DNA of 64,000 bases, taken from assembly GCA_964456475.1 (NCBI GenBank), contig CAYVZI010000001.1, forward strand, positions 11,762 through 75,761, given 5' to 3'. This stretch comes from an uncultured Candidatus Saccharibacteria bacterium. GTDB lineage: Bacteria > Patescibacteriota > Minisyncoccia > Phycocordibacterales > UBA9973. Below the pieces are notes generated by a model. It ran no database searches. It was not told the origin of the DNA and saw nothing but the letters and a program-made list of their open reading frames with translations. Each line of letters begins with the position of its first letter. The first letter of the stretch is position 1. Shown here piece after piece: positions 3,250-60,766 of this stretch. The translations under genes and the position numbers were made by a program.

Positions 3250-3603
3250 ATGAGTATACATACTTTAGCCCAAAAAATCAAGGCCTGGACAGGGGAGAGG
3301 AGACGACCCCTTGTTCTTGTTGGAATCCTTATATTTACGGCTTTTTCCTCCTTTTACGTTGGATATATTGCTCAAATCGAGACAAGTCCAAATGACTATC
3401 AATTCGAACCTCGTAGTACACAATCAGACCCGAAGGCAATCATACAAGCTACTGATGGGGCATTTATCGCCTCCCAAAATGGCACAAAGTACTACCCAAA
3501 GGAATGCATTGGAGCCAAAAGGATTAAGGAGCCTAATCGCGTATATTTTGAAACAGCAGACGATGCAGAGTCGCAGGGTTATTCATTAGCCTCGGGGTGT
3601 TGA
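3250..3603 (+). CDS. small membrane-anchored protein with a C-terminal Ada-like metal-binding-type motif
   Basis: TM helix LVLVGILIFTAFSSFYVGY. The C-terminus KYYPKEC...EPNRVYFETADDAESQGYSLASGC resembles the Ada N-terminal Zn-binding fold pattern (FCRPSC...ENVSFY..EALAAGF.PC..C), but only 2 of 4 Cys are present. Confidence 0.55.
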   Translation: MSIHTLAQKIKAWTGERRRPLVLVGILIFTAFSSFYVGYIAQIETSPNDYQFEPRSTQSDPKAIIQATDGAFIASQNGTKYYPKECIGAKRIKEPNRVYFETADDAESQGYSLASGC

Positions 3604-12500: not shown

Positions 12501-12887
12501 ATGGAAGAGATTACTTTTAACCAGATAGTGCAATTCCTAAAAGGTTCGGTTACGAAGAAGCCATATAAGACACCGATTCTTTTAACAAAAAGGATTCTTG
12601 AAGAAAATGAAAAAAGGGTCAAAGAAATTCGATCAACAACATTTTTTTCCTTGATGAAGAAGCATTTTTCCCTAAGTGAAGAAACCACTCCTGACCCAAG
12701 CAATTTAGAAGACACGGAAAGATTTCAGCTGTCCATTGCTGTCTTTTGTTTACACTACACTGAAATGCTGGGCATGAGAGGAAATAATATGCCTGATACA
12801 TACGACTATACATCATGGCGACATTGGTTTAGTACCAATATAGTGTTTCCTCCTCGTCACAAAAATTATTCAAAAAGGAGAGTTTGA
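12501..12887 (+). CDS. hypothetical protein
   Basis: 128-aa ORF followed by a terminator. Confidence 0.5.
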   Translation: MEEITFNQIVQFLKGSVTKKPYKTPILLTKRILEENEKRVKEIRSTTFFSLMKKHFSLSEETTPDPSNLEDTERFQLSIAVFCLHYTEMLGMRGNNMPDTYDYTSWRHWFSTNIVFPPRHKNYSKRRV

Positions 12888-12900
12888 ACATAAATAATAG

Positions 12901-12927
12901 TAATACCGCTCATCCAGCGGTATTTTT
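12901..12927. terminator. bidirectional intrinsic terminator
   Basis: aataccgctcatccagcggtatttttt. Confidence 0.75.
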
Positions 12928-12939
12928 TATAAACAAAAA

Positions 12940-13506
12940 CTAATACTTACGAATGACTCCGCGGACGATTGCGCGGATTTGCAAATCATTTTCGGGATAC
13001 ATCGGTTTGAAAAGTTTGTTGGCTGGTTCGAGCCAGACCTTGTCCCCTTTCTTTCGAAAATATTTCATAGTGAATTCTCCATCGATTTCGGCAATCACAA
13101 TTTCGCCATCTTTTGCATTGTCGGCACGTTCGGCAATGACCATGTCACCGTCGGCAATGTGTGCTTCAATCATGGATTCACCGTCCACCTCCATGATGAA
13201 AGTCTTGTCCTTTTTTTGTATCAAAAAATTGTCGATGTTTATCGTTGTCTCAAGCACGTCTTCACCTGGTGATGGAAAACCAGCTTTAACGAGACCAAGT
13301 ATTGGGGTTTCGTTAAATGCACTAGCAGGCAAAAGTCGCCCGAGGGAATCCTTGGTGACCATGCCTGCGTCTATGAGCTTATCTACAAGTCGAGCGACTG
13401 CATTCTTGGATTTGAATCCAAAAAGTTTGAGCATTTCCGAATACGTGGGCATTCGGCGTTCTCGGTCATAGAATTTGAGAAGTATGTTTTTGTAATCGTT
13501 TTGCAT
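12940..13506 (-). CDS. lexA: LexA repressor (S24 peptidase)
   Basis: N-terminal wHTH ...MPTYSEMLKLFGFKSKNAVARLVDKLIDAGMV and C-terminal S24 domain GESMIEAHIADGDMVIAE...KYFRKKG. The probable start is MQNDYK rather than the longest ORF. Confidence 0.85.
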   Translation of the reverse strand: MQNDYKNILLKFYDRERRMPTYSEMLKLFGFKSKNAVARLVDKLIDAGMVTKDSLGRLLPASAFNETPILGLVKAGFPSPGEDVLETTINIDNFLIQKKDKTFIMEVDGESMIEAHIADGDMVIAERADNAKDGEIVIAEIDGEFTMKYFRKKGDKVWLEPANKLFKPMYPENDLQIRAIVRGVIRKY

Positions 13507-13564
13507 TGGTTTAATAAATTTCAGAATCAAATGCAATTCGAGGCGCAATTGAGATTGTGACTAA

Positions 13565-13583
13565 AATGTACTACCTGTACATT
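13565..13583. promoter_or_regulatory. palindrome AATGTAC-N5-GTACATT upstream of lexA, a candidate operator
   Basis: Perfect 7-bp arms lying less than 60 bp upstream of the lexA start. Confidence 0.4.
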
Positions 13584-13637
13584 GCAGAAGCAAACGAATG
13601 CGGCAACAAAGAAGTGCGTTGATTGTGGAATTTATAA

Positions 13638-13907
13638 TTAGAATGAGAAAACTCGTGGCAATAATCTACTAAAAAATGTACTTGGAGTATTTTGTCGGAT
13701 TTTTTTCAAAAGAAGTTTGTGATCGTGAGCCTCCTTTGAATATTCCAAACCATGCACAATCTTGTAGTCGATAACTTTGTTGATTCTCTGCAATTCTTTC
13801 TCAATTAACTTGAGATATTCTTGATGCTTCATAAAACTTCTTTTGAACTTGCATAAATAGCACATTTCTTTGTTGCTTCGCTCGTTCCCTCCTGCAATGT
13901 ACGTCAC
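13638..13907 (-). CDS. hypothetical small basic protein upstream of lexA
   Basis: 89-aa ORF (GTG start, or a 75-aa ATG variant) co-directional with lexA and preceded by the GAAC-N4-GTTC palindrome. The gene call is uncertain. Confidence 0.35.
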   Translation of the reverse strand: MTYIAGGNERSNKEMCYLCKFKRSFMKHQEYLKLIEKELQRINKVIDYKIVHGLEYSKEAHDHKLLLKKIRQNTPSTFFSRLLPRVFSF

Positions 13908-14006
13908 AGTATATTTTAGTCGGAAGCCTCACTCGCGCCGCGAACTGTATCTATTTATGAAAGTTCAACTGTTATTTCTTATAATCCGACCGTGCCTATA
14001 TCATAT

Positions 14007-14022
14007 GTGAACGTTCGTTCAC
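14007..14022. promoter_or_regulatory. 16-bp perfect palindrome GTGAACGTTCGTTCAC, a Cheo-box-like candidate SOS operator
   Basis: Seen directly. It is the only 16-bp perfect GC-containing palindrome in this intergenic region. It lies about 100 bp upstream of the small ORF and lexA. Confidence 0.45.
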
Positions 14023-14093
14023 AAGCAAGTGTGGATAAGTAAAATGACACAGTATATTTGCAATGAAAAGCATCAATCGAAACAACACTGAAG

Positions 14094-15245
14094 TTACTTG
14101 GCTTTTTTGACAGCGTTTGCGATTGCTTTGACGACACGCTTATCAAAAGCATCGGGAATAATATATTTTTTGCTCAATTTGTTTTTTGGGACAAGATTTG
14201 CGAGTGCAAGTGCAGCTGCAACTTTCATTTTGTCAGTGATTTGTGAGACTTGTGCATCAAGCACTCCACGGAATAATCCAGGAAACACGAGTACGTTATT
14301 GATCTGATTTGGATAGTCAGAACGACCAGTGCCAAATACGGCAACTTTTGATTTTATAGCTTCTTCGTACGAAATTTCGGGTGTTGGATTGGCCATCGCA
14401 AAAATAATCGGATTGTCATTCATTGTTGCCACATCTTCCTTGGTGAGTAGATTGCCTGATGATACGCCAATAAACACATCGGCTTCAGCGATTGCGTCAG
14501 CGAGTGTGCCTATACGTTTGTTGCCGTTGGTCGTACGAGCGATAAGGAGTTTGTGTGCATCAAGATCGGTGCGATGTGTGCCAATAATCCCCTTTCGATC
14601 AAGTAGAATGATATTTTTCGGATCAAAACCAGCGACAGTGAGCAGATGAAATACTGCTTGGGCTGCTGCTCCTGCACCGCTTATAACAATAGATACATGC
14701 TTGGTCTTCTTTACGACCTTGAGCGCATTGGTGAGAGCAGAAAGAAGTACAATTGCAGTTCCATGCTGATCATCGTGAAAGACAGGAATAGATAATTCTT
14801 GTTTGAGTCGTTCTTCGATTTCAAAACAACGTGGAGCTGAAATATCTTCGAGATTTATTCCGCCGAAGACTGGAGCGATATTCTTGATTGTTTGAATAAT
14901 TTCCTCAACATCTTGCGTTGCAAGACAAATAGGAAAAGCATCAACATTTGCAAATTGCTTAAATAAAAGTGCTTTGCCTTCCATGACTGGAAGTGCAGCC
15001 TCGGGGCCGATGTTGCCAAGACCAAGCACTGCAGAGCCATCAGTAACGACAGCAATGGTATTGGCTTTGATTGTATGAGTGTAAGCTGCTTTTGGGTTCT
15101 CGTGAATGTAAGAAGAAACTGCTGCCACTCCCGGAGTATATGCGATGGCGAGATCTTGTTTATTGCGAACTGAAACCGTGCCTTTAAGGGCAATCTTACC
15201 TTTGTGTTTTTTGTGTAATGCGAGCGATGCTTTTCCGTAATTCAT
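14094..15245 (-). CDS. NAD(P)-dependent malic enzyme
   Basis: [14 protein letters not shown]...YTPGVAAV plus a Rossmann GAGAAA and other malic-enzyme motifs. The probable start is MNYGKAS, which has an AGGATAG SD. Confidence 0.85.
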
Positions 15246-33694: not shown

Positions 33695-33748
33695 GTTTGT
33701 ATAAATGAAATGGGTACATTACTTGTGCAATGTACCCATATTGTAAAA

Positions 33749-34570
33749 TTATAATTCGTCATAACGCAACCTTCGGGTCGGTTCACCATTTTTGGCATAC
33801 CCGCGATAACCTATGATGCCAACATTCTTATTAATCCCCTCTTCGCCATAGGTATTTTTCTGAAACCACGCCTGAATATACCCAGGAACGTTTTCAGTAA
33901 AAGACATGTGATCTTCAGGTTCATAAATCACTGATTGATTGCTCAGACCCAATACATCTGCCCATAGACCTGTATACATAAGGGCAATAAGTGCAATGTC
34001 GCGATCGTTTGGTTGGCATTTCTTACCCATCATTCTTTCCCAAATTTTTAAAGCAACACTATGTTCTTTTTCAATTTCTGAAGTGTAGATGGGAGTGACT
34101 TCTCCCTTCCAACCGAACGACTGTAGGTGTTTTTTAACCAGTTCTACACCTTTTTCTTTATGTACTTCGTGAAAAATACATTTGAGTTCCTCCGCGGGCA
34201 ATGATGTCCACTTTGAAACCCTTCTTGCGAAGATAGAGTCTTCTACGACATATGTGATCTTTCGAACTGCTTTTGGAGGAACGCCAACCGTGTTAAAGAT
34301 TTGATCAATTCTTGGATACCAAGAATATATCCAGGTTCTAAAATCCTCGCAAGACCCAAATGTTATTTCGCGTTTGCGTATTGACTCTGACTCGCCCGTG
34401 AACAAGGAGCAGATTCCTCCGACCACGGTAGTGCAATTAGGATCAAATCCTTCCTTTCGAAATTGATGTCCTATGATGTGACTCTTTCCAAAGGCGTTGT
34501 TCCAAGACTCGGGAATTGCTTTTAATGCCTTGTGTGCCAATGTCCAAGGCAGTGTTTCGTTCGCATACAT
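33749..34570 (-). CDS. hypothetical protein
   Basis: 273-aa ORF with no recognised motif. Confidence 0.55.
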   Translation of the reverse strand: MYANETLPWTLAHKALKAIPESWNNAFGKSHIIGHQFRKEGFDPNCTTVVGGICSLFTGESESIRKREITFGSCEDFRTWIYSWYPRIDQIFNTVGVPPKAVRKITYVVEDSIFARRVSKWTSLPAEELKCIFHEVHKEKGVELVKKHLQSFGWKGEVTPIYTSEIEKEHSVALKIWERMMGKKCQPNDRDIALIALMYTGLWADVLGLSNQSVIYEPEDHMSFTENVPGYIQAWFQKNTYGEEGINKNVGIIGYRGYAKNGEPTRRLRYDEL

Positions 34571-59734: not shown

Positions 59735-60766
59735 TTAGATAGGTGAGTATTTCTTGTCTTTGTTTTTCTTGAAATACTTTGGGTTCTGAAGATTCACAAG
59801 GATTGTGTTCTTTTTGAGGTAGCGTTCCTTGAGAACTTTGTCTACCACTTCTTCCTTGGTGAGCGGTCCTTCACGTTTCAAGATTTCCTTGATGACGTCA
59901 CGGACGACTCCCGGCTTGTATCCCCATTCTTGAAGAGCATACATTCCGCGTCCAACAAGTACGAAGCGTTTGTCTTTGATGAGTTCGTTGTGGCAAGTAG
60001 CTGTGTGACACTTCTTCACAAATGTATCGGAGATCGCTTCTGCAACTTCACGGAAGTGCATCGGTGATCCGTGCTTACGCATCATAAGATATGCAAAATC
60101 CTTGATACCACGAGCCTTCACACCGCTTGCTGTAGCGCGTCCCATTTCGCCGAGTGGATTCTTACAGATTCCTTTTGAGAGACAGAGCCATCGCTTTGCA
60201 ATTTCTTCATCAACAGTAGCAACGTTAATCTTTTTCAATTCATCAAGGAAACGATTTACCATTTCACTTTCAGTAATGAGTTCGTCATCATCAAGCTTTT
60301 CGTACAATGACTGAAGTGTAGTGTGTACTTTGTCAGAAAGGTCTGTATCAATACTCCAGCGAGATACAAAATTGTCGTCTTCGCGGTGTTTGATGAATTC
60401 ATCTCCAAGAACAAGGTAGAAGTGGATGTGATTCTGAGTTTCCTCATCCTTTGCAATACTTGAGAGAAGGTCGTCTTCTGCTACGAGCCCGCCGAGTTCA
60501 GTAATGAGTGATTTAAGTTCACTCCAAGTAGACTTTTCACTCTTGTAGTCGTCTGATTTTTTGATGAGGGCGAGTGCAGCCTGTTCAATCTGACGAACAC
60601 GCTCACGGGTAATGCCGTATTTGTCTCCGATTGCCTCCAATGTCTGTCGTTCAGCAAGGGTTCCAAGTCCAAAACGGCTCTTGATAATATCAAGAGAACG
60701 GTCCTGAAGCGGGGAAAGTATTTTTTTTGTGACAGCCTTTGGCTTAAATGATATTTTCTTTGACAT
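59735..60766 (-). CDS. DNA-binding protein with N-terminal sigma-70 region-4 HTH and C-terminal HARE-HTH domain (not a sigma factor)
   Basis: N-terminus LDIIKSRFGLGTLAERQTLEAIGDKYGITRERVRQIEQAALALIKK is a region 4.2 consensus. C-terminus MHFREVAEAI...FVLVGRGMYALQEWGY is a HARE-HTH/RpoE-delta-like pattern. No region 2 or 3 motifs. Confidence 0.65.
   Translation of the reverse strand: MSKKISFKPKAVTKKILSPLQDRSLDIIKSRFGLGTLAERQTLEAIGDKYGITRERVRQIEQAALALIKKSDDYKSEKSTWSELKSLITELGGLVAEDDLLSSIAKDEETQNHIHFYLVLGDEFIKHREDDNFVSRWSIDTDLSDKVHTTLQSLYEKLDDDELITESEMVNRFLDELKKINVATVDEEIAKRWLCLSKGICKNPLGEMGRATASGVKARGIKDFAYLMMRKHGSPMHFREVAEAISDTFVKKCHTATCHNELIKDKRFVLVGRGMYALQEWGYKPGVVRDVIKEILKREGPLTKEEVVDKVLKERYLKKNTILVNLQNPKYFKKNKDKKYSPI

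What the first reader, a model, noticed from the sequence alone, without database searches (positions are those of the whole stretch)
13565..14022. lexA locus with two distinct palindromes and an upstream small ORF, a candidate minimal SOS unit
A 16-bp perfect palindrome GTGAACGTTCGTTCAC (14007-14022) fits the GAAC-N4-GTTC (Cheo) LexA-box architecture of Gram-positive-type LexA. It lies about 100 bp upstream of an 89-aa ORF that precedes lexA on the same strand. A different palindrome, AATGTAC-N5-GTACATT (13565-13583), sits directly upstream of lexA. The small ORF could be an SOS-induced factor, for example a division inhibitor analogous to YneA/SulA. Either palindrome could be the operator, and LexA motifs in this lineage are not established as far as I know.
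Basis: partly seen in the sequence, partly recalled or inferred. Interest (0 to 1): 0.55.

Follow-up and report, generated by a model that had tools for sequence, protein, structure and literature searches.

The report
Self-repressed lexA operon with small partner gene
This is the DNA-damage (SOS) repressor gene lexA of an uncultured Patescibacteria bacterium, switched off by its own product at one of the two palindromes; the other palindrome is only the tip of a recently inserted repeat. The unusual parts are an unstudied 64-residue protein gene always attached to lexA and a replication-initiator (DnaA) site at the same promoter.

Summary
Both palindromes are at the stated coordinates. Only one is an operator.

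**Operator (14007-14022).** GTGAAC-N4-GTTCAC is not a perfect 16-mer; its symmetry is 7+2+7. It fills the 17-bp spacer between the -35 and -10 boxes of the promoter that drives a small ORF and then lexA. The same promoter-operator is present in nearly every relative examined. It also precedes four Y-family polymerase genes in other Patescibacteria. This is a Gram-positive-type LexA box.

**Second palindrome (13565-13583).** AATGTAC-N5-GTACATT is the apex of a ~130-bp palindromic insertion. The insertion is absent from relatives whose LexA is 94-97% identical. A second, inverted copy sits in the operon leader.

**Small ORF.** The conserved gene encodes 64 aa (13638-13832), not 89. It is under strong purifying selection and was linked to lexA in every locus where this could be judged. 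The model is a helical hairpin with a Phe-rich tail. It matches no known family.

**New observation.** A consensus DnaA box (14030-14038) lies next to the -35. It is conserved and its spacing is helically phased.

**Limits.** No other SOS gene lies in the 64 kb, so "minimal SOS unit" is untested. The small protein's function is inferred only. A 2017 paper on the Patescibacteria SOS network could not be read.

The parts
12940..13506 (-). lexA (188 aa), SOS repressor
   Evidence: TIGR00498 lexA equivalog at 131 bits against a cut-off of 111, plus Pfam Peptidase_S24. The alignment to E. coli LexA keeps the Ala-Gly cleavage site (A75-G76) and the Ser/Lys dyad (S111, K148). The best solved relative is Thermotoga LexA 3k2z, aligned over residues 11-187.
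13638..13832 (-). Conserved 64-aa ORF of unknown function, first gene of the operon
   Evidence: Homology in relatives starts at M26 of the 89-aa ORF. dN/dS is 0.03-0.08. It is linked to lexA in all determinable loci. A profile search found 300 cluster representatives, mostly 60-75 aa. AlphaFold2 gives pLDDT 80.6: a helical hairpin plus a short C-terminal helix. There was no Pfam, NCBIfam, PHROG or PDB match.
14007..14022 (-). LexA operator, GTGAACGAACGTTCAC on the minus strand (GTGAACG-N2-CGTTCAC)
   Evidence: GTGAAC-N4-GTTCAC is perfect in 62 of 65 genome relatives, always between -35 and -10. It is the only high-scoring site in the window. The same operator sits in the promoters of four Y-family polymerase genes.
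14023..14028 (-). -35 hexamer TTGCTT (TTGACT or TTGCAT in relatives)
   Evidence: Position-specific conservation, anchored on the operator, in 187 distinct promoters. In this genome it matches only 3 of 6 consensus bases, so the simple promoter scan did not list it.
14000..14005 (-). -10 hexamer TATGAT (TATACT or TATAAT in relatives); the operator plus 1 nt forms the 17-bp spacer
   Evidence: TATACT in 56 and TATAAT in 16 of 77 relatives' promoters.
14030..14038 (-). Consensus DnaA box TTATCCACA, 1 nt upstream of the -35
   Evidence: It is the only copy in 64 kb. An exact box is present in 66 of 77 genome-derived promoters. Those 66 account for most of the 78 exact boxes in 652 kb of sequence. 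The gap to the -35 clusters at 1, 8-10 and 18-20 bp. A box is present in 74 of 80 small-ORF-first promoters but only 5 of 23 lexA-first promoters. Binding by DnaA is inferred.
13507..13637 (-). Copy B of a ~130-bp palindromic insertion between the small ORF and lexA; its apex is the finding's second palindrome (13565-13583)
   Evidence: It is present only in the window and in L082/L083 (LexA 98% identical). It is absent from L081, L084, L085 and L086 (94-97% identical); where both gene ends are on the contig (L081, L085) the stop and the lexA ATG are 2-3 bp apart. It folds end to end as a hairpin with the palindrome at the tip.
13836..13969 (-). Copy A of the same element, inverted, inserted in the operon leader (apex 13896-13915; terminal inverted repeats 13843-13860 and 13951-13968)
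   Evidence: It is 73% identical to copy B over 105 bp in inverted orientation, E = 1.5e-9 (pairs I1, I2, I4). It is present only in the window. It folds as a long hairpin, z = -2.6. It supplies the 25 spurious N-terminal codons of the 89-aa ORF.
12902..12924 (.). Two-way terminator hairpin that ends the operon
   Evidence: Terminator scan: 9-bp stem with 4 G-C pairs. The T-run follows the stem only on the + strand, the side of the convergent 128-aa ORF (12501-12887); on the lexA strand the tail is ACTATTATTT.

Best explanation
The locus is a two-gene SOS operon of a Parcubacteria-group (Patescibacteria) bacterium.

Operon and operator. One sigma-70-type promoter at about 14000-14028 transcribes a 64-aa protein gene and then lexA. 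A Gram-positive-type LexA box, GTGAACG-N2-CGTTCAC (14007-14022), occupies the whole 17-bp spacer between the -35 and -10 boxes. A bound LexA dimer should therefore exclude RNA polymerase. After DNA damage, RecA-stimulated self-cleavage of LexA would release the promoter, raising both the small protein and new LexA.

DnaA box. A consensus DnaA box abuts the -35 at a helically phased distance. Replication-initiator status probably also feeds into this promoter.

Second palindrome. AATGTAC-N5-GTACATT has no operator role. It is the centre of symmetry of a ~130-bp palindromic, MITE-like repeat. The repeat was inserted recently, once between the small ORF and lexA and once, inverted, in the leader.

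Small protein. It is a cytoplasmic helical hairpin with a Phe-rich amphipathic tail. Most likely it is the SOS effector or partner of this lineage: a cell-cycle checkpoint factor, or otherwise a LexA accessory protein.

Shown: positions, conservation, gene linkage, purifying selection, and presence or absence of the insertions.
Inferred: LexA binding, DnaA binding, the transcription start, and any function of the small protein.
For: Operator:
- 62 of 65 genome relatives carry a perfect GTGAAC-N4-GTTCAC flanked by TTGACN/TTGCAT and TATACT/TATAAT.
- It is the only strong site in the window.
- In a metagenome scan with the promoter-operator pattern, 84 matches precede the small-ORF gene and 25 precede a leaderless lexA.
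- The same operator lies in the promoters of four Y-family polymerase genes: L048, L108, L113 and L181.

LexA:
- It matches the TIGR00498 equivalog and keeps the cleavage site and catalytic dyad.

Second palindrome:
- It lies within an insertion that is polymorphic among relatives 94-98% identical in LexA.
- An inverted 73%-identical copy sits in the leader.
- Both copies fold as hairpins with the palindrome at the apex.

Small ORF:
- dN/dS is 0.03-0.08.
- 142 loci have the order small ORF then lexA. A further 17 are cut by the contig end; 15 of them still show the start of lexA and two have too little sequence left. Two loci have the reverse order. No locus with enough room downstream lacks lexA.
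- Stop and start are usually 1-12 bp apart or overlap.
- The model is a helical hairpin. There is no transmembrane segment, and the tail is 21% Phe.

DnaA box.
Against: - No binding or expression data exist for this uncultured lineage.
- The window's own -35 (TTGCTT) is weak, and the generic promoter scan did not list this promoter.
- Within the 64 kb no other gene carries the operator. recA, uvr and dinB are absent from the window, so regulon membership could be shown only in relatives.
- The repeat shows no clean target-site duplication and no further copies in 64 kb or in 1.3 Mb of relatives' loci. 'Mobile element' is therefore not proven.
- The link between the DnaA box and the small ORF could reflect shared ancestry rather than function.
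- The small protein matches no characterised family, so its role rests on gene context alone.
Confidence: 0.8

Rival explanations
1. The AATGTAC-N5-GTACATT palindrome is a second operator, for LexA or another regulator, that gives lexA its own control separate from the small ORF.
For: It is a perfect 7+5+7 palindrome 58 bp upstream of the lexA ATG. AATGTAC occurs 4 times within 340 bp here, against 12 occurrences in 64 kb counting both strands.
Against: The whole 131-bp spacer is missing from relatives with 94-97% identical LexA, where lexA abuts the small ORF. The nearest genome relatives, L001 and L007, have unrelated spacers. The extra AATGTAC copies belong to the second copy of the repeat and to codons of the small ORF. 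No related site precedes any repair gene. The only other paired occurrence, at 33714-33735, is a terminator-like hairpin. The generic scan found no promoter inside the spacer.
Confidence: 0.04
2. The 64-aa protein is a LexA accessory factor rather than a downstream effector. It would bind LexA and tune its DNA binding or self-cleavage, as phage GIL01 gp7 does for LexA and DdrR does for UmuDAb.
For: It is invariably linked to lexA in either gene order. Stop and start codons are tightly coupled or overlap, which suggests roughly equal production of the two proteins. It is a small, all-helical, soluble protein. There is precedent for small co-repressors encoded next to S24-family repressors (PMC11332147).
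Against: It has no sequence similarity to any solved chain or phage family. A Phe-rich amphipathic tail and a DnaA box are not explained by a co-repressor role. About 19 lexA loci from more distant Patescibacteria use the same operator without it.
Confidence: 0.25
3. TTATCCACA here is not a DnaA site. It would be a lineage-specific upstream promoter element or the site of another factor.
For: Only one box is present, whereas DnaA-regulated promoters often have several. No DnaA data exist for this group. The association with the small ORF may be phylogenetic.
Against: It matches the 9-mer DnaA box consensus exactly (established knowledge). It occurs once in 64 kb, and 66 of the 78 exact copies in 652 kb lie at this promoter. 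It occurs in both orientations, with gaps about one helical turn apart.
Confidence: 0.25
4. The two ~130-bp insertions are not mobile DNA. They would be selected RNA structures, or template-switch products, that uncouple or attenuate expression of the small ORF and lexA in this strain.
For: In the transcript the two copies are predicted to pair with each other at -101.9 kcal/mol, against -41.5 +/- 5.5 for shuffles, enclosing the small ORF. Both copies sit at this one locus and nowhere else in the sequence examined. A 14-nt perfect complement links the leader's end to codons inside the ORF. No target-site duplication was found.
Against: The copies are only 73% identical, although copy A arose after the split from L083, which is 98% identical in LexA. 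That implies copy A came from a diverged copy elsewhere. Terminal inverted repeats and presence/absence polymorphism are typical of MITEs. The insertions are absent from almost all relatives, so they are not needed for the operon to work.
Confidence: 0.2

Closest known systems
Autoregulated lexA with a Gram-positive-type LexA box (Cheo/DinR box, CGAAC-N4-GTTCG; Bacillus subtilis and Actinobacteria)
   Same: Inverted GAAC/GTTC arms with a rigid 4-bp spacer. The operator overlaps the core promoter of lexA's own transcription unit. Translesion polymerase genes carry the same box in relatives.
   Different: The arms are extended to GTGAACG/CGTTCAC. A single box fills the -35/-10 spacer exactly. 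lexA is the second gene, behind a small ORF, and a DnaA box adjoins the promoter.
SOS cell-division inhibitor genes next to lexA (YneA, SosA, ChiZ, DivS; PMC6851548)
   Same: A small, lineage-specific, poorly conserved protein gene sits next to lexA under LexA control. The hydrophobic C-terminal tail could serve for membrane contact or as a degradation signal.
   Different: It is co-directional and translationally coupled to lexA rather than divergent. It has no transmembrane segment and no LysM domain. No functional evidence exists.
Small co-regulators of S24-family repressors (GIL01 gp7 with LexA; DdrR with UmuDAb; PMC11332147)
   Same: A small protein encoded with or beside the repressor gene, likely produced in step with the repressor.
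   Different: No detectable sequence similarity to any solved chain. It is chromosomal and conserved across a whole bacterial class, not phage- or genus-specific. Interaction with LexA was not tested.
Sda of Bacillus subtilis (46-aa helical-hairpin checkpoint protein whose promoter carries DnaA boxes; my own knowledge)
   Same: A small helical hairpin gene with DnaA box(es) at its promoter, induced on replication or DNA damage stress.
   Different: Sda targets sporulation kinases, which these bacteria are not expected to have.
Bacterial MITEs and palindromic repeats (for example Correia, RUP and ERIC elements; my own knowledge)
   Same: About 130 bp, no ORF, terminal inverted repeats, folds as a long hairpin, intergenic, and polymorphic among close strains.
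   Different: Only two copies were seen, both at one locus. No target-site duplication could be resolved, and no parent transposase is known.

Membership tests
LexA repressor (TIGR00498) | N-terminal winged-helix DNA-binding domain joined to a C-terminal S24 peptidase domain, scoring above the curated model cut-off | tested here: met
   TIGR00498 at 131.3 bits against 110.95, covering residues 7-187. Pfam Peptidase_S24 E = 2.7e-26. Pfam LexA_DNA_bind itself was not hit. PDB LexA chains align over the full length.
LexA repressor (TIGR00498) | Ala-Gly cleavage site and Ser/Lys catalytic dyad | tested here: met
LexA repressor (TIGR00498) | RecA-stimulated self-cleavage | not testable with these tools
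   Needs biochemistry.
Gram-positive-type LexA box (GAAC-N4-GTTC) | Inverted GAAC/GTTC arms with a fixed 4-bp spacer | tested here: met
   GTGAAC-GTTC-GTTCAC at 14007-14022. The spacing is invariant in the 187 distinct promoters collected.
Gram-positive-type LexA box (GAAC-N4-GTTC) | Present in the promoter of lexA's own transcription unit | tested here: met
   It lies between the -35 and -10 boxes upstream of small ORF-lexA or of lexA in the relatives examined.
Gram-positive-type LexA box (GAAC-N4-GTTC) | Recurs upstream of other SOS genes | tested here: inconclusive
   Met in relatives: four Y-family polymerase genes. In this genome only 64 kb could be searched. That stretch holds no recA, uvr or dinB gene and no second box.
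Gram-positive-type LexA box (GAAC-N4-GTTC) | Bound by the cognate LexA | not testable with these tools
   Needs EMSA or footprinting.
YneA/SosA/ChiZ-type SOS division inhibitors | Single membrane-spanning segment | tested here: not met
   The highest 19-residue Kyte-Doolittle mean is 0.94 across 143 family members; none exceeds 1.6.
YneA/SosA/ChiZ-type SOS division inhibitors | LysM domain (YneA, ChiZ) | tested here: not met
   No Pfam domain in any of the 93 members scanned.
YneA/SosA/ChiZ-type SOS division inhibitors | Adjacent to lexA and LexA-controlled | tested here: met
   It is always next to lexA, with the operator in its promoter. It is co-directional, not divergent.
YneA/SosA/ChiZ-type SOS division inhibitors | Blocks cell division when expressed | not testable with these tools
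   Needs expression experiments.
SulA | SulA domain | tested here: not met
   No Pfam or NCBIfam hit.
gp7/DdrR-type repressor co-factors | Direct binding to the S24 repressor | not testable with these tools
   No multimer prediction or contact output was available.
gp7/DdrR-type repressor co-factors | Sequence relationship to gp7 or DdrR | tested here: inconclusive
   A profile search against all PDB chains found nothing below E = 1, and there was no PHROG family. I did not hold the gp7 or DdrR sequences for a direct comparison.
DnaA box | Match to the 9-mer TTATCCACA | tested here: met
   Exact match at 14030-14038, unique in the window. Conserved in most relatives.
DnaA box | Bound by DnaA, with an effect on transcription | not testable with these tools
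   Inferred only.
MITE | Short, non-coding, with terminal inverted repeats | tested here: met
   Copy A has 18-nt terminal repeats that are 94% complementary (I2). Both copies fold end to end.
MITE | Target-site duplication | tested here: inconclusive
   The junctions, compared with empty sites in L081, L083 and L085, show no clean duplication. The flanking bases also differ.
MITE | Multiple dispersed copies in the genome | tested here: inconclusive
   Two copies, both at this locus. None elsewhere in 64 kb or in 1.3 Mb of relatives' loci. The rest of the genome was not available.
Sda / YnzC (small SOS- or DnaA-linked helical proteins of Bacillus) | Sequence homology | tested here: not met

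The most novel reading that the evidence does not exclude
Parcubacteria-group Patescibacteria have a promoter about 60 bp long with two inputs. A DnaA box reads replication-initiator status and a LexA box reads DNA damage. The promoter drives a lineage-specific 64-aa helical-hairpin protein that is translationally coupled to LexA. This protein would be a new kind of cell-cycle checkpoint effector, or LexA partner, in bacteria that lack the known SOS division inhibitors.
Probability: 0.3. Interest if true: 0.65.

Novelty: new variant of a known kind. Interest (0 to 1): 0.4.

Why it matters
The operator is ordinary. It extends the Gram-positive-type LexA box to this Patescibacteria genome and settles which palindrome matters.

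The surrounding features are of more interest. Patescibacteria are uncultured, have tiny genomes, and their cell-cycle control is almost unknown. A protein gene that never separates from lexA across a whole class is a concrete candidate for their damage or replication checkpoint. It sits behind a promoter that combines a LexA box with a phased DnaA box. It is small enough to test in a surrogate host.

The case is also a caution for motif hunting. A perfect palindrome directly upstream of a regulator gene turned out to be the tip of a strain-specific repeat insertion.

Tried and rejected
- The second palindrome as operator was rejected. It lies in a strain-polymorphic insertion.
- The candidate second LexA box at 59859-59874 was rejected. 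It scores 12.2 bits with 3 mismatches, lies inside a sigma-like ORF, and is within shuffle range.
- The 89-aa reading of the small ORF was rejected. Homology starts at M26, and the extension lies in the repeat.
- Searches for a known family for the 64-aa protein found nothing: Pfam, NCBIfam, PHROGs, PDB sequence profile and Foldseek against PDB. Foldseek returned only generic coiled-coil hairpins at E > 1.
- Homology to Sda and YnzC: none.
- Rfam families across 12850-14150: nothing near threshold.
- recA was sought in all fetched loci, to test its promoter: none present.
- The repeat element was sought in 1.3 Mb of relatives' loci: only the orthologous copy in L082/L083 was found.
- The 2017 Patescibacteria SOS paper is not held in the library. 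Citing papers give no detail of its motif or regulon.
- A full-text search for 'DnaA box' together with 'lexA promoter' found no paper.
- A fused small-protein/LexA structure prediction was considered and dropped. The tool returns no contacts or error map, and it would probably refuse a chimeric sequence.
Full report
**Origin and gene content**

The window comes from an uncultured Patescibacteria bacterium of the Parcubacteria group. The closest genome records are labelled Candidatus Nomurabacteria or Paceibacterota. The G+C content is 40.6%.

On the minus strand, 12940-13506 encodes a 188-aa LexA.
- It matches NCBIfam TIGR00498 (lexA equivalog) at 131 bits against a cut-off of 111, over residues 7-187.
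- It matches Pfam Peptidase_S24.
- It aligns over its full length with solved LexA structures.
- It keeps the Ala-Gly cleavage site and the Ser/Lys dyad when aligned to E. coli LexA.

The rest of the window holds housekeeping genes, including dnaB, recR, a mur/ftsW cluster and scpAB. It holds no recA, uvr or translesion polymerase gene.

**Checking the observation**

Both palindromes are at the stated coordinates.
- The first is not a perfect 16-mer. It reads GTGAAC-GTTC-GTTCAC, or GTGAACG-NN-CGTTCAC.
- The second is a perfect 7+5+7 palindrome.
- Palindromes of these shapes are common here. The window has 18 perfect 7+5+7 and 10 perfect 7+2+7 palindromes. Shape alone therefore proves nothing.

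**The first palindrome is the operator**

I fetched 80 genome loci encoding relatives of this LexA (62-86% identity).
- 62 of 65 loci where the region could be read carry a perfect GTGAAC-N4-GTTCAC.
- The box is always flanked directly by TTGACN or TTGCAT on one side. On the other side, after one base, comes TATACT or TATAAT.
- The operator is therefore the 17-bp spacer of a sigma-70-type promoter.

In the window the minus strand reads TTATCCACA-c-TTGCTT-GTGAACGAACGTTCAC-a-TATGAT (14038 down to 14000).

A position matrix built from the relatives' sites finds only this site in 64 kb. It scores 28.3 bits. The next hit scores 12.2 bits, lies inside an ORF, and is within the range of shuffles.

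I then scanned metagenome contigs for TTGNNNGTGAACNNNNGTTCACNTATANT. The 121 matches divide as follows:

| What follows the promoter-operator | Matches |
|---|---|
| Small-ORF family gene | 84 |
| lexA directly, usually with the ATG 6 nt after the -10 (leaderless) | 25 |
| Too close to a contig end | 8 |
| Other genes | 4 |

Four independent Y-family polymerase genes (Pfam IMS) carry the operator in their promoters:
- L048
- L108, behind a UmuD-like S24 gene
- L113
- L181

It identifies the site as a LexA box of the Gram-positive GAAC-N4-GTTC class. Binding itself is inferred.

**The second palindrome is not an operator**

Contigs encoding LexA proteins 94-98% identical to the window's were compared.

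| Loci | LexA identity | Spacer between small ORF and lexA |
|---|---|---|
| L081, L085 (also L084, L086, where only one gene end is on the contig) | 94-97% | Stop and lexA ATG are 2-3 bp apart; no 131-bp stretch |
| Window, L082, L083 | 98-100% | 131-bp stretch 13507-13637 present |

- A second copy of the stretch lies in the operon leader at about 13836-13969, and only in the window. It is inverted and 73% identical over 105 bp, E = 1.5e-9.
- Each copy folds end to end as an imperfect hairpin with the AATGTAC/GTACATT motif at the tip.
- Copy A has 18-nt terminal inverted repeats.
- The nearest genome relatives, L001 and L007, have unrelated spacers.

The palindrome is therefore the centre of symmetry of a small palindromic repeat, probably a MITE-like element. 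I could not find a target-site duplication or further copies. A mobile origin is likely but not proven.

The insertions have three consequences in this strain:
- The leader is about 160 nt long, against 40-60 nt in relatives.
- The small ORF and lexA are no longer translationally coupled.
- The two copies are predicted to pair in the transcript at -101.9 kcal/mol, against -41.5 +/- 5.5 for shuffles, enclosing the small ORF.

**The small ORF**

Homology in relatives begins at Met26 of the 89-aa ORF. The 25 extra codons lie inside repeat copy A. The gene is therefore 13638-13832 and encodes 64 aa.

Evidence that it is a real protein gene:
- dN/dS against close relatives is 0.03-0.08.
- A profile search of 1.84 billion representatives found 300 family members, mostly stand-alone proteins of 60-75 aa.

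Linkage to lexA:
- 142 loci have the order small ORF then lexA.
- 17 more are cut by the contig end; 15 of them still show the start of lexA and two have too little sequence left.
- 2 loci have the reverse order.
- No locus with enough room downstream lacks lexA.
- Nineteen more distant lexA loci lack the small ORF.

Stop and start codons are typically 1-12 bp apart or overlap.

Structure and family:
- AlphaFold2 (pLDDT 80.6) gives a helical hairpin, H3-26 and H32-48, plus a short C-terminal helix.
- There is no transmembrane segment. The last 16 residues are 21% Phe. Their hydrophobic moment (median 0.55) is similar to that of the MinD membrane-targeting helix (0.45).
- N18, I21, D22 and H38 are invariant in 93 diverse members.
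- No Pfam, NCBIfam, PHROG or PDB relative was found.
- There is no homology to Sda or YnzC.

**A DnaA box at the promoter**

TTATCCACA is the consensus DnaA box (established knowledge). It occurs once in the window, one base upstream of the -35.
- An exact box is present in 66 of 77 genome-derived promoters.
- Those 66 account for most of the 78 exact boxes in 652 kb of sequence.
- The gap to the -35 falls into classes of 1, 8-10 and 18-20 bp, about one helical turn apart.
- In the metagenome set, 74 of 80 small-ORF-first promoters have the box (52 exact, 22 with one mismatch). Only 5 of 23 lexA-first promoters have it.

This suggests that DnaA acts on this promoter and that the input relates to the small protein. 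Shared ancestry could also produce the association.

**Mechanism**

Shown:
- The architecture of the promoter, operator and DnaA box.
- The two-gene operon, which ends at a terminator hairpin at 12902-12924.
- Conservation and linkage of the small ORF.
- The recent origin of the repeat insertions.

Inferred:
- A LexA dimer on the spacer blocks RNA polymerase.
- DNA damage relieves the block through RecA-stimulated LexA cleavage, raising the small protein and LexA together.
- DnaA modulates the same promoter.

For the small protein I favour a checkpoint effector, at about 35%. It would act on cell division or replication initiation, with the Phe-rich tail serving for membrane contact or as a degradation signal. 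The reasons are that lexA-adjacent genes in Gram-positive bacteria encode the SOS division inhibitor (PMC6851548) and that the DnaA box points to the cell cycle.

A LexA accessory factor, like gp7 or DdrR (PMC11332147), is the main alternative, at about 25%. The tight coupling to lexA favours it.

**Comparison with what is known, and novelty**

The operator and the autoregulation are a known kind. The SOS network of Patescibacteria was analysed by Sanchez-Osuna, Barbe and Erill in 2017. I could not read that paper, so I cannot say whether the small ORF or the DnaA box were noted there.

A full-text search for 'DnaA box' together with 'lexA promoter' found nothing. The small protein has no curated family.

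I therefore rate the locus a new variant of a known kind, of moderate interest. 'Minimal SOS unit' remains untested, because only 64 kb of the genome could be searched.

Noticed in passing
window 14030-14038 (minus strand): A consensus DnaA box, TTATCCACA, lies one base upstream of the -35 of the lexA operon promoter. It is the only copy in 64 kb. It is conserved in most relatives, with gaps to the -35 of 1, 8-10 or 18-20 bp.
   Followed up: yes
window 13507-13637 and 13836-13969: Two inverted copies of a ~130-bp palindromic repeat, 73% identical, flank the 64-aa ORF. They are absent from close relatives. They are predicted to pair with each other in the transcript at -101.9 kcal/mol.
   Followed up: yes
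window 13834-13847 and 13705-13718: A 14-nt perfect inverted repeat links the last bases of the leader, just 5' of ATG 13832, to codons inside the small ORF. It could mask the start region in this strain, or it could be chance.
   Followed up: no
window 13905-13916 and 14048-14059: A 12-nt exact direct repeat, CACAGTATATTT. One copy is inside the leader repeat and the other is just upstream of the DnaA box. It is unexplained.
   Followed up: no
L089, L090, L100, L133, L134 and about 20 other metagenome loci: In more distant Patescibacteria the same promoter-operator drives lexA directly. The ATG is usually 6 nt after the -10, so the mRNA is leaderless. These promoters mostly lack a DnaA box.
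   Followed up: partly
L116 (minus strand; match at 3282-3310), L091:9717-9745, L048:203: The operator-promoter also precedes an N6 DNA methylase gene (L116, with a DnaA box), a second methylase-like ORF (L091), and a 369-aa ORF with a hydrophobic N-terminus and no Pfam match (L048).
   Followed up: partly
L074, L058, L056, L057, L067, L079, L060, L053, L071, L075, L035, L064 (between small ORF and lexA): A second conserved small ORF of 56-75 aa lies between the 64-aa gene and lexA in this subclade. It has the motif TPFKtLv..E..Rl and a hydrophobic tail. The profile of the 64-aa family does not detect it.
   Followed up: partly
L087:227-1744: The gene order is reversed in a distant relative: lexA, then the small ORF, then an ORF6N-domain protein. 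The operator lies upstream of lexA.
   Followed up: no
window 12902-12924: A terminator hairpin lies between lexA and a convergent 128-aa ORF (12501-12887). That ORF has no family match and is conserved at this position in close relatives.
   Followed up: no
window 33712-33739 (minus strand): A terminator-like hairpin, TGGGTACATT-N8-AATGTACCCA followed by a T-rich tail, lies after the ORF 33749-34570. It shares GTACATT with the finding's palindrome, apparently by chance.
   Followed up: partly
relatives' promoters, 6-16 nt downstream of the -10: GGTCG or AGTCG recurs in the early leader of about a third of the promoters. In the window it is GGTCGG at about 13984-13989. Its role is unknown.
   Followed up: partly
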